From the human T2T-CHM13v2.0 reference genome, Homo sapiens: 64,000 nucleotides of DNA. The stretch lies in assembly GCF_009914755.1 (NCBI RefSeq), contig NC_060937.1; one strand, written 5' to 3'. Made by a program: the position numbers and the translations under genes. The notes beneath the pieces are model-generated. The model saw nothing but the letters and a program-made list of their open reading frames with translations. It searched no databases and was not told the DNA's origin. This document shows, in pieces, positions 40,336-64,000 of the stretch. Numbering within the stretch: the stretch's first letter is position 1; every line of letters begins with the position of its first letter.

Positions 40336-40570
40336 GGGGGAGGAGCCAAGATGGCCGAATAGGAACAGCTCTGGTCTACAGCTCCCAGCGTGACCGACGC
40401 AGAAGACCGGTGATGTCTGCATTTCCATCTGAGGTACCGGGTTCATCTCACTAGGGAGTGTCAGACAGTGGGCGCAGGCCAGTGGGTGCGCGCACGGTGC
40501 GCGAGCCAAAGCAGGGCGAGGCATTGCCTCACCTGGGAAGCACAAGGGGTCAGGGAGTTCCCTTTCCGAG

Positions 40571-40786
40571 TCAAAGAAAGGGGTGACGGACGCACCTGGA
40601 AAATCGGGTCACTCCCACCCGAATATTGCACTTTTCAGACCGGCTTAAAAAACGGCGCACCACGAGACTATATCCCACACCTGGCTCTGAGGGTCCTACG
40701 CCCACGGAATCTCGCCGATTGCTAGCACAGCAGTCTGTGATCAAACTGCAAGGCGGCAGCGAGGCTGGGGGAGGGGCGCCCGCCAT
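40571..40786 (-). CDS. ORF0: LINE-1 ORF0 (antisense, 71 aa), open
   Basis: MAGAPPPASLPPCSLITDCCASNRRDSVGVGPSEPGVGYSLVVRRFLSRSEKCNIRVGVTRFSRCVRHPFL matches the recalled primate ORF0 peptide. Confidence 0.85.
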   Translation of the reverse strand: MAGAPPPASLPPCSLITDCCASNRRDSVGVGPSEPGVGYSLVVRRFLSRSEKCNIRVGVTRFSRCVRHPFL

Positions 40787-41241
40787 TGCCCAGGCTTGCT
40801 TAGGTAAACAAAGCAGCCAGGAAGCTCGAACTGGGTGGAGCCCACCACAGCTCAAGGAGGCCTGCCTGCCTCCGTAGGCTCCACCTCTGGGGGCAGGGCA
40901 CAGACAAACAAAAAGACAGCAGTAACCTCTGCAGACTTAAATGTCCCTGTCTGACAGCTTTGAAGGGAGCAGTGGTTCTCCCAGCACGCAGCTGGAGATC
41001 TGAGAACCGGCAGACTGCCTCTTCAAGTGGGTCCCTGACCCCTGACCCCCGAGCAGCCTAACTGGGAGGCACCCCCCAGCAGGGGCACACTGACACCTCA
41101 CACGGCAGGGTATTCCAACAGACCTGCAGCTGAGGGTCCTGTCTGTTAGAAGGAAAACTAACAAACAGAAAGGACATCCACACCAAAAACCCATCTGTAC
41201 ATCACCATCATCAAAGACCAAAAGTAGATAAAACCACAAAG

Positions 41242-42258
41242 ATGGGGAAAAAACAGAACAGAAAAACTGGAAGCTCTAAAAATCAGAGCGCCTCTCCTCC
41301 TCCAAAGGAACGCAGCTCCTCACCAGCAACAGAACAAAGCTGGATGGAGAATGACTTTGACGAGCTGAGAGAAGAAGGCTTCAGACGATCAAATTACTCT
41401 GAGCTATGGGAGGACATTCAAACCAAAGGCAAAGAAGTTGAAAACTTTGAAAAAAATTTAGAAGAATGTATAACTAGAATAACCAATACAGAGAAGTGCT
41501 TAAAGGAGCTGATGGAGCTGAAAACCAAGGCTCGAGAACTATGTGAAGAATGCAGAAGCCTCAGGAGCCGATGCGATCAACTGGAAGAAAGGGTGTCAGC
41601 AATGGAAGATGAAATGAATGAAATGAAGCGAGAAGGGAAGTTTAGAGAAAAAAGAATAAAAAGAAATGAGCAAAGCCTCCAAGAAATATAGGACTATGTG
41701 AAAGGACCAAATCTACGTCTGATTGGTGTACCTGAAAGTGATGGGGAGAATGGAACCAAGTTGGAAAACACTCTGCAGGATATTATCCAGGAGAACTTCC
41801 CCAATCTAGCAAGGCAGGCCAACATTCAGATTCAGGAAATACAGAGAACGCCACAAAGATACGCCTCGAGAAGAGCAACTCCAAGACACATAATTGTCAG
41901 ATTCACCAAAGTTGAAATGAAGGAAAAAATGTTAAGGGCAGCCAGAGAGAAAGGTCGGGTTACCCTCAAAGGGAAGCCCATCAGACTAACAGCAGATCTC
42001 TCGGCAGAAACCCTACAAGCCAGAAGAGAGTGGGGGCCAATATTCAACATTCTTAAAGAAAAGAATTTTCAACCCAGAATTTCATATCCAGCCAAGCTAA
42101 GCTTCATAAGTGAAGGAGAAATAAAATACTTTACAGACAAGCAAATGCTGAGAGATTTTGTCACCACCAGACCTGCCCTAAAAGAGCTCCTGAAGGAAGC
42201 ACTAAACATGGAAAGGAACAACCGGTACCAGCCGCTGCAAAATCATGCCAAAATGTAA
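41242..42258 (+). pseudogene. L1 ORF1p with premature stop
   Basis: MGKKQNRKTG...NHAKM interrupted by TAG (Trp codon) at 41689-41691. Confidence 0.93.
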
Positions 42259-62500: not shown

Positions 62501-63412
62501 GGCATTTAGTGCTATAAATTTCCCTCTACACACTGCTTTGAATGTGTCCCAGAGATTCTGGTATGTTGTGTCTTTGTTCTCATTGGTTTCAAAGAACATC
62601 TTTATTTCTGCCTTCATTTCGTTATGTACCCAGTAGTCGTTCAGGAGCAGTTTGTTCAGTTTCCATGTAGTTGAGCAGTTTTGAGTGAGTTTCTTAATCC
62701 TAAGTTCTAGTTTGATTGCAATGTGGTCTGAGAGACAGTTTGTTATAATTTCTGTTCTTTTACATTTGCTGAGGAAAGCTTTACTTCCAAGTATGTGGTC
62801 AATTTTGGAATAGGTGTGGTGTGGTGCTGAAAAAAATGTATATTCTGTTGATTTGGGGTGGAGAGTTCTGTAGATGTCTATTAGGTCCGCTTGGTGCAGA
62901 GCTGAGTTCAATTCCTGGGCATCCTTGTTAACTTTCTGTCTCGTTGATCTGTCTAATGTTGACAGTGGGGTGTTAAAGTCTCCCATTATTATTGTGTGGG
63001 AGTCGAAGTCTCTTTGTAGGTCACTCAGGACTTGCTTTATGAATCTGGGTGCTCCTGTATTGGGTGCATATATATTTAGGATAGTTAGCTCTTCTTGTTG
63101 AATTGATCCCTTTACCATTATGTAATGGCCTTCTTTGTCTCTTTTGATCTTTGTTGGTTTAAAGTCTGTTTTATCAGAGACTAGGATTGCAACCCCTGCC
63201 TTTTTTTGTTTTCCATTTGCTTGGTAGATCTTCCTCTATCCTTTTATTTTGAGCCTATGTGTGTCTCTGCACATGAGATGGGTTTCCTGAATACAGCACA
63301 CAGATGGGTCTTGACTCTTTATCCAATTTGCCAGTCTGTGTCTTTTAATTGGAGCATTTAGTCCATTTACATTTAAAGTTAATATTGTTATGTGTGAATT
63401 TGAGCCTGTCAT
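59585..63412 (-). pseudogene. L1 ORF2p, disrupted
   Basis: ORF pieces of 515, 454 and 200 aa; frameshifts near 61575 and 60220; early stop near 63237. Confidence 0.92.
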
Positions 63413-63475
63413 TATGATGTTAGCTGGGTATTTTGCTCGTTAGTTGATGCAGTTTCTTCCTAGCCTCGATGGTCT

Positions 63476-64000
63476 TTACAATTTGGCATGATTTTGCAGT
63501 GGCTGGTACCGGTTGTTCCTTTCCATGTTTAGCGCTTCCTTCAGGAACTCTTTTAGGGCAGGCCTGGTGGTGTGACAAAATCTCTCAGCATTTGCTTGTC
63601 TGTAAAGTATTTTATTTCTCCTTCACTTAGGAAGCTTATTTTGGCTGGATACGAAATTCTGGGTTGAAAATTCTTTTCTTTAAGAATGTTGAATATTGGC
63701 CCCCATTGTCTTCTGGCTTGTAGAATTTCTGCTGAGAGATCCGCTGATAGTCTGATGGGCTTCCCTTTATGGGTAACCCGACCTTTCTCTCTCGCTGCCC
63801 TTAACATTTTTCCCTTCATTTCAGCTTTGGTGAATCTGACAATTATGTGTCTTGGAGTTGCTCTTCTTGAGGAGTATCTTTGTGGTGTTCTCTGTATTTC
63901 CTGAATCTGAATGTTGGCCTGCCTTGCTAGATTGGGGAAGTTCTCCTGGATAATATCCTGCAGAGTGTTTTCCAACTTGGGTTCATTCTCCCCGTCACTT
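63476..64000 (-). pseudogene. L1 ORF1p C-terminal part (truncated by the window, frameshifted)
   Basis: ENTLQDIIQENFPNLARQANIQIQEIQRTP...LRDFVT, then frame change near 63570. Confidence 0.85.

What the first reader, a model, noticed from the sequence alone, without database searches (positions are those of the whole stretch)
40336..64000. Inverted young L1 pair with mosaic shared variants: gene conversion and a candidate inversion of the 13-kb spacer
Seen: the plus L1 (40336-46370) and minus L1 (59323 onward) are tail-to-tail inverted repeats around ~52868. Their 3' UTR diagnostics differ (CTAGATGACGAGTTAGTGGG vs CTAAATGACGAGTTAATGGG), as do their 5' ORF2 regions. Yet they share many unusual ORF2 states: [66 protein letters not shown] and LHCCWD. 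The 93-aa antisense ORFs 44386-44667 and 61069-61350 are identical. Sharing is patchy over ~43390-45760 and near-complete at ~44350-45200. Known: nearby inverted repeats undergo non-allelic conversion and mediate NAHR inversions that short reads miss. Inference: repeated exchange between two independent insertions; 46.4-59.3 kb may be a polymorphic or recurrent inversion. The intact TSD indicates ancestral orientation in this sequence.
Basis: partly seen in the sequence, partly recalled or inferred. Interest (0 to 1): 0.8.

Follow-up and report, generated by a model that had tools for sequence, protein, structure and literature searches.

The report
Gene conversion between two inverted L1s
Two separately inserted, dead L1 retrotransposons lying tail-to-tail 13 kb apart on human chromosome 13 share one 812-base stretch that has been copied from one to the other, an ordinary but clean example of gene conversion between nearby repeats, while the proposed flipping of the DNA between them is not seen in a published catalogue.

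Summary
A full-length plus-strand L1 (A, 40336-46370, perfect 15-bp target-site duplication) and a full-length minus-strand L1 (B, 59323 to 65522, past the window end) are about 97% identical. A belongs to a younger lineage. B is older and has 128 extra bases in its 5' UTR. Inside ORF2 the two copies are identical over 812 bp (A 44332-45143 = B 60593-61404). About 21 differences were expected there, and 0 of 200,000 shuffles gave a run that long. In this tract both copies share 12 states seen in at most 2 of 53 unlinked L1 copies. The best unlinked genomic match is only 98%. The tree joins A and B in the tract but not in the right flank. This is a recent non-allelic gene conversion, and the tract background looks mostly B-like. 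The inversion idea is not supported. A's matching duplications show the ancestral orientation, no reciprocal swaps are seen, and a T2T-CHM13 inversion catalogue of 44 samples lists nothing between 38.17 and 47.42 Mb. That catalogue does list a comparable L1-flanked inversion at 79.05 Mb. This is a known kind of event and of low interest.

The parts
40336..46370 (+). L1 copy A. It is full length and of the younger lineage, lacking the 128-bp 5' UTR block. ORF1 and ORF2 are both broken. Poly(A) is at 46356-46370.
   Evidence: The best unlinked relatives are 99% identical in the 3' 1151 bp.
40321..40335 (+). 5' copy of A's target-site duplication, AAAAATTACAAAAGA.
   Evidence: Read directly.
46371..46385 (+). 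3' copy of A's target-site duplication. It is identical to the 5' copy over 15 of 15 bases.
   Evidence: Read directly.
44332..45143 (+). Conversion tract in A. It spans 812 bp of ORF2 with no difference from B and is bounded by differences at 44331 and 45144.
   Evidence: run length; 0 of 200,000 shuffles reach it. (12 shared states seen in <=2 of 53 unlinked copies). (no unlinked copy better than 98%). (tree).
60593..61404 (-). The same tract in B.
   Evidence: Coordinates follow (partner match) and the motif positions.
59323..64000 (-). L1 copy B, older lineage. It continues to 65522 outside the window. It has a poly(A) of 22 at 59323-59344, ORF2 in at least 3 pieces, and 128 extra bases in the 5' UTR at about 64622-64748.
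   Evidence: The best unlinked relatives are 97% identical.
46386..59322 (.). The 12.9-kb spacer between the two L1 tails. It holds the RefSeq 'enhancer' 53587-54786 (hub annotation) and older repeats.
   Evidence: No inversion is listed here in the catalogue.
58061..58745 (-). Older L1 3'-end fragment just inside the spacer. It is not part of the converted pair.
   Evidence: pairs I4 and I7 (88% and 83% to A's 3' end).

Best explanation
A and B are two independent L1 insertions of different age, lying tail-to-tail 12.9 kb apart. After both were in place, a recombination-repair event used one copy as template for the other and made 812 bp of ORF2 identical (A 44332-45143 = B 60593-61404). This is non-allelic (interlocus) gene conversion without crossover. 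The orientation of the spacer therefore stayed ancestral. The tract carries mostly B-lineage states, so B is the more likely donor for at least its 3' two-thirds. The event is recent. No difference has accumulated since, although about 9 post-insertion differences would be expected over the elements' lifetime. That places the event in roughly the last third of the time since A inserted. With recalled rates of 0.5-1e-9 per site per year, it falls within about the last 2-4 Myr (inference). A side effect is that the longest block of perfect homology between the copies rose from at most 236 bp to 812 bp. In principle this makes the pair a better NAHR substrate (inference).
For: Independent origin:
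- A has its own perfect 15-bp TSD.
- B has 128 bp in the 5' UTR that A lacks, and the 5' UTRs are only 93.5% identical.
- Thirteen 3' sites separate an A-type group (22 copies) from a B-type group (6 copies) of unlinked L1s.

The tract:
- Over the full length there are 195 mismatches and 7 gap events, but none in 812 bp. The next longest clean run is 236 bp. None of 200,000 uniform shuffles reaches 812; the maximum was 470.
- From the flank rate, 21.4 differences were expected, so P(0)=4.9e-10. From rare (private) states alone, 9.4 were expected, so P(0)=8.5e-5.

Shared private states:
- The tract holds 12 states found in <=2 of 53 unlinked copies, 5 of them in 0 of 53. The 1819 bp of flank hold only 1 such state.

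Genome-wide comparison:
- For the 851-bp query the partner copy scores 1527 of 1535 bits. The best unlinked copy scores 1441 bits, or 98% (40 of 4383 candidates scored).
- Two sub-windows of the tract match only A and B at 100%. The next best are 98% and 97%.

Incongruence:
- In the right flank the smallest clade holding A and B contains 44 of 55 tips.
- In the tract A and B are identical on a stem of 0.021, and their nearest copy is B-type.

Direction:
- Two of 3 type-discriminating sites in the tract are B-type in both copies.
- In a first, less clean panel, B-type copies shared 5-9 of 27 A=B minority states and A-type copies shared 0-4.
Against: - Only one genome was available, with no ape orthologues and no other human haplotypes. 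Direction and date are therefore inferred, not seen.
- One discriminating site in the tract (44557) has the A-type state in both copies. The tract may be a mosaic of both directions.
- The 12 shared rare states exceed what either parent's flank rate predicts: 4.5 if the tract came from A and 5.8 if from B (P=0.0023 and 0.016). This is unexplained.
- The genome searches scored only 40 of about 800-5500 first-look candidates, so a closer third copy is unlikely but not excluded.
- The raw reads behind the assembly could not be inspected.
Confidence: 0.85

Rival explanations
1. The shared ORF2 states are ordinary variants of an L1 subfamily that both copies belong to, and no exchange took place.
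For: This holds for the patches outside the tract. Segment 45704-45806 has 3 unlinked 100% matches. Segment 43377-43448 has one unlinked 100% match over 72 nt and another over 70 nt. State 45748 T is present in 6 of 22 A-type copies.
Against: Inside the tract, 5 states occur in 0 of 53 and 7 more in 1-2 of 53 unlinked copies. No unlinked copy exceeds 98%. The two copies belong to different lineages in the flanks. Subfamily sharing also cannot remove the roughly 9 post-insertion differences expected in the tract.
Confidence: 0.04
2. A and B are the two arms of an inverted segmental duplication, and the tract is simply its least-mutated part.
For: The copies are inverted, adjacent, 97% identical and full length.
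Against: A has its own perfect TSD directly at both ends. B has a different 3' tail and different flanks. The copies differ by a 128-bp 5' UTR indel and have 5' UTRs only 93.5% identical. Lineage-diagnostic differences are shared with separate sets of unlinked copies. The clean run of 812 bp is far outside a uniform mutation process.
Confidence: 0.02
3. The identical tract is an assembly or polishing artefact in which reads of one L1 were used to correct the other.
For: The two copies are similar and close together. No reads could be examined here.
Against: The tract has sharp edges flanked by copy-specific states within 1-30 bp on both sides. It is far shorter than the long reads used for this assembly (recalled, not tested). 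It also carries states absent from all other copies, so it is real sequence of at least one copy.
Confidence: 0.04
4. The pair has undergone NAHR inversion(s) of the spacer, the tract is a by-product, and the spacer is polymorphic in orientation today.
For: The geometry fits known L1-flanked inversions. In one study, 22 L1-flanked balanced inversions had a median pair identity of 97.2% and a median size of 5.6 kb (passages of the preprint 10.1101/2021.12.20.472354). In another, 8 LINE-1-mediated inversions had a median similarity of 97.1% (passages of PMC9675761). The pair now has an 812-bp block of perfect homology.
Against: A's TSD copies still flank A. No site shows A with the B-type state while B has the A-type state, so there are no reciprocal swaps. 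Table S1 of PMC10150506 (T2T-CHM13 coordinates, 44 sample columns) lists 17 chr13 inversions and none between 38,173,628 and 47,419,533. The same table does list a 20.5-kb inversion whose breakpoints lie in two head-to-head L1s, so this class is detectable. No coordinate beginning 4564-4567 was found in supplement 4 of PMC9675761; these hg38 prefixes rest on a recalled liftover offset. No 'chr13' was found in 12 of the 18 supplement files of PMC6748972.
Confidence: 0.08

Closest known systems
Non-allelic (interlocus) gene conversion between nearby dispersed repeats (Alu, LTR and segmental duplications)
   Same: Two paralogous copies a few kb apart show a short tract of identity bounded by diverged flanks. 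Donor-specific variants are transferred, and the tree is incongruent between tract and flanks. The review PMC6598467 (passages read) describes these signatures for Alu and LTR elements. It reports elevated rates for copies closer than 10 kb and hotspots that include TEs.
   Different: Here the partners are two full-length L1s of different lineage in inverted orientation 12.9 kb apart. The passages I read documented Alu and LTR cases, not L1 pairs. My three phrase searches found no paper with the phrase 'gene conversion between L1'. That was a narrow search.
L1-flanked NAHR inversion polymorphisms in human inversion catalogues
   Same: The pair consists of inverted full-length L1s about 97% identical with a kb-scale spacer. 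This is the same architecture as the 22 L1-flanked inversions of the preprint 10.1101/2021.12.20.472354. It also matches the catalogued chr13:79,049,270-79,069,795 inversion, whose breakpoints I placed inside two inverted L1s.
   Different: No inverted allele is catalogued at this locus, and this haplotype is in the ancestral orientation. The 79-Mb pair is 99.9% identical over the 1901 bp compared, whereas this pair is 97%.
L1PA lineage split marked by the 129-bp 5' UTR deletion (ZNF93 escape)
   Same: A lacks a 128-bp block in the 5' UTR that B has. PMC7110667 (passages read) states that a 129-bp deletion arose and became fixed in L1PA3 and later L1PA lineages.
   Different: I did not align the 128-bp block to the published element. 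Equating the two rests on size and 5' UTR location only. Subfamily names (L1PA2/3 for A, L1PA3/4 for B) are inferred, not assigned by a classifier.

Membership tests
Interlocus gene conversion tract | The two paralogues have independent origin and diverged flanks. | tested here: met
   A has its own 15-bp TSD. The copies differ by a 128-bp indel, and the 5' UTRs are 93.5% identical. Flank divergence is 2.2-2.7 per 100 bp.
Interlocus gene conversion tract | A stretch has divergence significantly below the flanks. | tested here: met
   There are 0 differences in 812 bp against 21.4 expected, P=4.9e-10. None of 200,000 shuffles reaches 812.
Interlocus gene conversion tract | Both copies share private (post-insertion) variants in the tract. 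| tested here: met
   The tract has 12 states seen in <=2 of 53 unlinked copies, against 1 in 1819 bp of flank. Tract sub-windows are unique to A and B at 100%.
Interlocus gene conversion tract | The tree is incongruent between tract and flanks. | tested here: met
   In the right flank the MRCA of A and B holds 44 of 55 tips. In the tract A equals B on a stem of 0.021. In the left flank they are only weak sisters, support 0.36.
Interlocus gene conversion tract | The pre-conversion state is seen in an outgroup species or in other haplotypes. | not testable with these tools
   No ape or other human assemblies are held. The ape paper's tables were too large to read.
NAHR inversion polymorphism | Inverted repeats of high identity flank the segment. 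| tested here: met
   The pair is 6 kb long, 97% identical and has an 812-bp perfect block.
NAHR inversion polymorphism | Both orientations are observed among individuals. | tested here: not met
   No entry is listed in Table S1 of PMC10150506 (44 samples, T2T coordinates). The catalogue's sensitivity at this locus is unknown.
NAHR inversion polymorphism | Chimeric repeats with swapped flanks or TSDs, or reciprocal exchange of diagnostic sites. | tested here: not met
   A's TSD is intact. None of the 21 discriminating sites shows a reciprocal swap.
Full-length L1 (LINE-1) insertion | 5' UTR, ORF1, ORF2, 3' UTR, poly(A) tail and a target-site duplication. | tested here: met
   A meets all features, with both ORFs broken. 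B has all parts, but only a 5-6-bp candidate TSD (GCCAG/GCCAGG), which is ambiguous.

The most novel reading that the evidence does not exclude
The conversion may be so recent that unconverted and converted A alleles still segregate in humans. A single long heteroduplex with discontinuous repair, about 43750-45760, could explain both the 812-bp core and the isolated shared or B-type states in A at 43754, 44201, 45611 and 45754. The new 812-bp perfect block would then make this pair a rare-but-recurrent inversion site for an enhancer-bearing 13-kb spacer. It would be a locus where conversion can be watched priming NAHR.
Probability: 0.12. Interest if true: 0.4.

Novelty: new member of a known kind. 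Interest (0 to 1): 0.22.

Why it matters
The finding is a clean, well-bounded example of sequence homogenisation between two dispersed L1 copies of different age. Such events blur subfamily assignment and age estimates of individual L1 copies. They also lengthen the perfect homology available for ectopic recombination. Neither L1 can retrotranspose. No gene lies in the spacer, and no inversion is catalogued there. The locus itself therefore has no evident functional consequence. Its value is as an illustration and as a possible test locus for conversion-then-NAHR in pangenome data.

Tried and rejected
- Patchy conversion outside the tract. I searched the genome with the three outer patches. 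Two have exact unlinked matches and the third has one-mismatch neighbours, so I do not count them as evidence. What remains is 43754 (0 of 53 unlinked copies) and B-type states in A at 44201 and 45611. A carries 2 of 5 such states outside the tract; of 22 A-type copies, 18 carry 0, one carries 1 and three carry 2. This is suggestive only.
- Donor direction from distances to panels. This was uninformative. Each panel was picked by similarity to one segment, and the older copies carry their own mutation load.
- First site tables. These used a keep-length fragment alignment in which 5'-truncated loci gave spurious states. I redid them with the 53 of 71 unlinked loci that cover 43720-46350 in one alignment block. 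The 18 dropped loci are listed in that call.
- GC-biased conversion. Among shared rare tract states, W>S to S>W is 7:4, against 8:7 for private flank states. There is no signal.
- (full MAFFT alignment) timed out and was replaced.
- Literature. A full-text search for the locus coordinates found 0 papers. The Cell 2022 inversion paper, Ebert 2021 and Jacobs 2014 are not held. The preprint's tables are closed. The ape-genome tables are too large to read. These unseen supplements could list an inversion or an ape difference here.
- B's TSD. Only GCCAG or GCCAGG recurs at both junctions, which is too short to call.
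Full report
**What is there**

The window is human chr13 (T2T-CHM13), according to the hub annotation.

- Copy A is a plus-strand L1 at 40336-46370. It begins GGGGGAGGAGCC and ends in a poly(A). 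It is flanked on both sides by the identical 15-mer AAAAATTACAAAAGA, at 40321-40335 and 46371-46385.
- Copy B is a minus-strand L1. It starts with a 22-T run at 59323 and runs off the window. With 2.4 kb fetched from the same assembly, it extends to 65522 and is also full length.
- Repeat finding and blastn confirm the tail-to-tail inverted pair. Within the window, 4625 nt align at 97.4%. With the extension, 5247 nt align at 97.1%, plus a 5' UTR block of 775 nt at only 93.5%.
- A global alignment gives 195 mismatches and 7 gap events. One gap event is 128 bases present in B's 5' UTR and absent from A, at A position 41111.
- Both elements are dead. A's ORF1 is in two pieces, and its ORF2 is split near 43953. 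B's ORF2 is in at least three pieces.

**Two insertions, not a duplication**

- A has its own perfect TSD.
- B has a different tail and different flanks. Only GCCAG or GCCAGG recurs at B's two junctions, which is too short to call a TSD.
- A's 3' 1151 bp finds unlinked genomic copies at 99%. B is not among the 40 scored hits.
- B's 3' 1191 bp finds nothing unlinked better than 97%. A ranks only sixth among the non-self hits.
- I compared A and B with the 53 of 71 fetched unlinked L1 copies that cover 43720-46350 in one block. The other 18 were dropped as truncated or split.
- Thirteen 3' sites sort these 53 copies into 22 A-type, 6 B-type and 25 intermediate copies.
- A is therefore a younger-lineage element and B an older one.
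- The 128-bp difference fits the 129-bp 5' UTR deletion that became fixed in L1PA3 and later lineages (passages of PMC7110667). I did not align the block to the published element.

**The tract**

- Differences between A and B run at 2.2-6.6 per 100 bp everywhere except A 44332-45143 (= B 60593-61404). There are none in those 812 bp.
- The next longest clean run is 236 bp. None of 200,000 uniform shuffles of the 202 difference events reached 812; the maximum was 470.
- From the ORF2 flanks, 21.4 differences were expected, so P(0)=4.9e-10. Counting only rare, presumably post-insertion states (9 in A and 12 in B over 1819 bp of flank), 9.4 were expected, so P(0)=8.5e-5.
- In the tract both copies share 12 states seen in at most 2 of the 53 unlinked copies. 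Five of them are seen in none. The flanks hold one such site, 43754.
- Genome-wide, the partner matches an 851-bp query at 100% (1527 of 1535 bits). The best unlinked copy reaches 98% (1441 bits; 40 of 4383 candidates scored).
- Two 96-101-bp sub-windows rich in the rare states match only A and B at 100%. The next best matches are 98% and 97%.
- Trees agree with this picture:
  - In the right flank, the smallest clade with A and B holds 44 of 55 tips.
  - In the tract, A and B are identical on a long stem of 0.021.
  - In the left flank, they are weak sisters with support 0.36.

This set of signatures is that of non-allelic gene conversion. It is described for Alu and LTR elements and for copies closer than about 10 kb in the review PMC6598467 (passages read).

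**Direction and date**

- Eight type-discriminating sites were not used for classification. Three of them lie in the tract. Sites 44791 and 44935 carry the B-type state in both copies, and 44557 carries the A-type state in both.
- The tract's nearest unlinked copy is B-type.
- B is therefore the likelier donor, at least for the 3' two-thirds. A mosaic of both directions is possible.
- The 12 shared rare states exceed the number predicted from either parent's flank rate: 4.5 if the tract came from A and 5.8 if from B. I cannot explain this.
- There is no GC bias.
- Zero differences since the event place it in roughly the last third of the time since A inserted. With recalled mutation rates this is within about 2-4 Myr (inference).

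**The wider "patchy" sharing**

- Three of the ten motifs lie outside the tract. The patch around LHCCWD (45704-45806) has three unlinked 100% copies.
- The QKIIES patch has one unlinked 100% copy over 72 nt and another over 70 nt.
- The FTDKFY patch is 100% only in A and B, but three unlinked copies differ by one base.
- What remains is 43754 (0 of 53), plus B-type states in A at 44201, 45611 and 45754.
- A carries 2 of 5 outside-tract discriminating B-type states. Among the 22 A-type copies, 18 carry none, one carries one and three carry two.
- This is compatible with discontinuous repair or older small events, but it is not significant.

**The inversion**

- A single NAHR inversion between A and B would separate A's two TSD copies. 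They are intact.
- A double event would leave reciprocal swaps. None of the 21 discriminating sites shows one.
- Table S1 of PMC10150506 gives T2T-CHM13v1.1 coordinates for 44 sample columns. It lists 17 chr13 inversions and none between 38,173,628 and 47,419,533.
- As a positive control, I checked that table's entry chr13:79,049,270-79,069,795 (20.5 kb). Both of its breakpoints lie inside two head-to-head L1s that are 99.9% identical over 1901 bp. Events of this class and size are therefore detected.
- No coordinate beginning 4564-4567 appeared in supplement 4 of PMC9675761. These hg38 prefixes come from a recalled liftover offset, so this check is weaker than the T2T-coordinate one.
- No 'chr13' appeared in the 12 of 18 supplement files searched for PMC6748972.
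- No paper's full text carries the locus coordinates.
- The architecture does match known L1-flanked inversions, which have a median pair identity of about 97%. A rare or recurrent inversion therefore remains possible but is unsupported.

**Verdict**

The gene conversion reading is supported for one sharp 812-bp tract. Repeated or patchy exchange is weakly supported. The inversion is not supported. This is a new instance of a well-known process, and its interest is low.

Noticed in passing
L078, L079 and L029 (G000 chr13:79,048,300-79,073,910): The catalogued polymorphic inversion chr13:79,049,270-79,069,795 (PMC10150506, Table S1) has both breakpoints at about L1 position 1900 of two head-to-head L1s. 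These are 99.9% identical over the 1901 bp compared. One of them (L029) was among the closest genomic relatives of the tract and is B-type.
   Followed up: partly
window 58061-58745: An older L1 3'-end fragment lies on the minus strand, 83-88% identical to A's 3' end. It sits just inside the spacer next to an Alu and B's tail, so the right side carries two successive L1 3' ends.
   Followed up: no
window 59323-59400 and L061 (window 65480-65620): B's 3' end has an A-rich extension (…ATAATAATAATTTTTTAAAAATAAATAAAAATAAAACTGT) before a pure A22 tail. Only 5-6 bases (GCCAG or GCCAGG) recur at its two junctions, so its TSD is unclear. B's 5' end starts at CCAAGATGG after about 10 bases that match neither the flank nor the usual L1 start.
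   Followed up: no
window 43953: A carries one extra T relative to B. This is where its ORF2 reading frame splits into 42322-43956 and 43937-46150.
   Followed up: partly
window 44332-45143: The tract holds more shared rare states (12) than either copy's flank rate predicts (4.5 or 5.8). These include an adjacent pair at 44882/44883 and a cluster at 45048-45080.
   Followed up: partly
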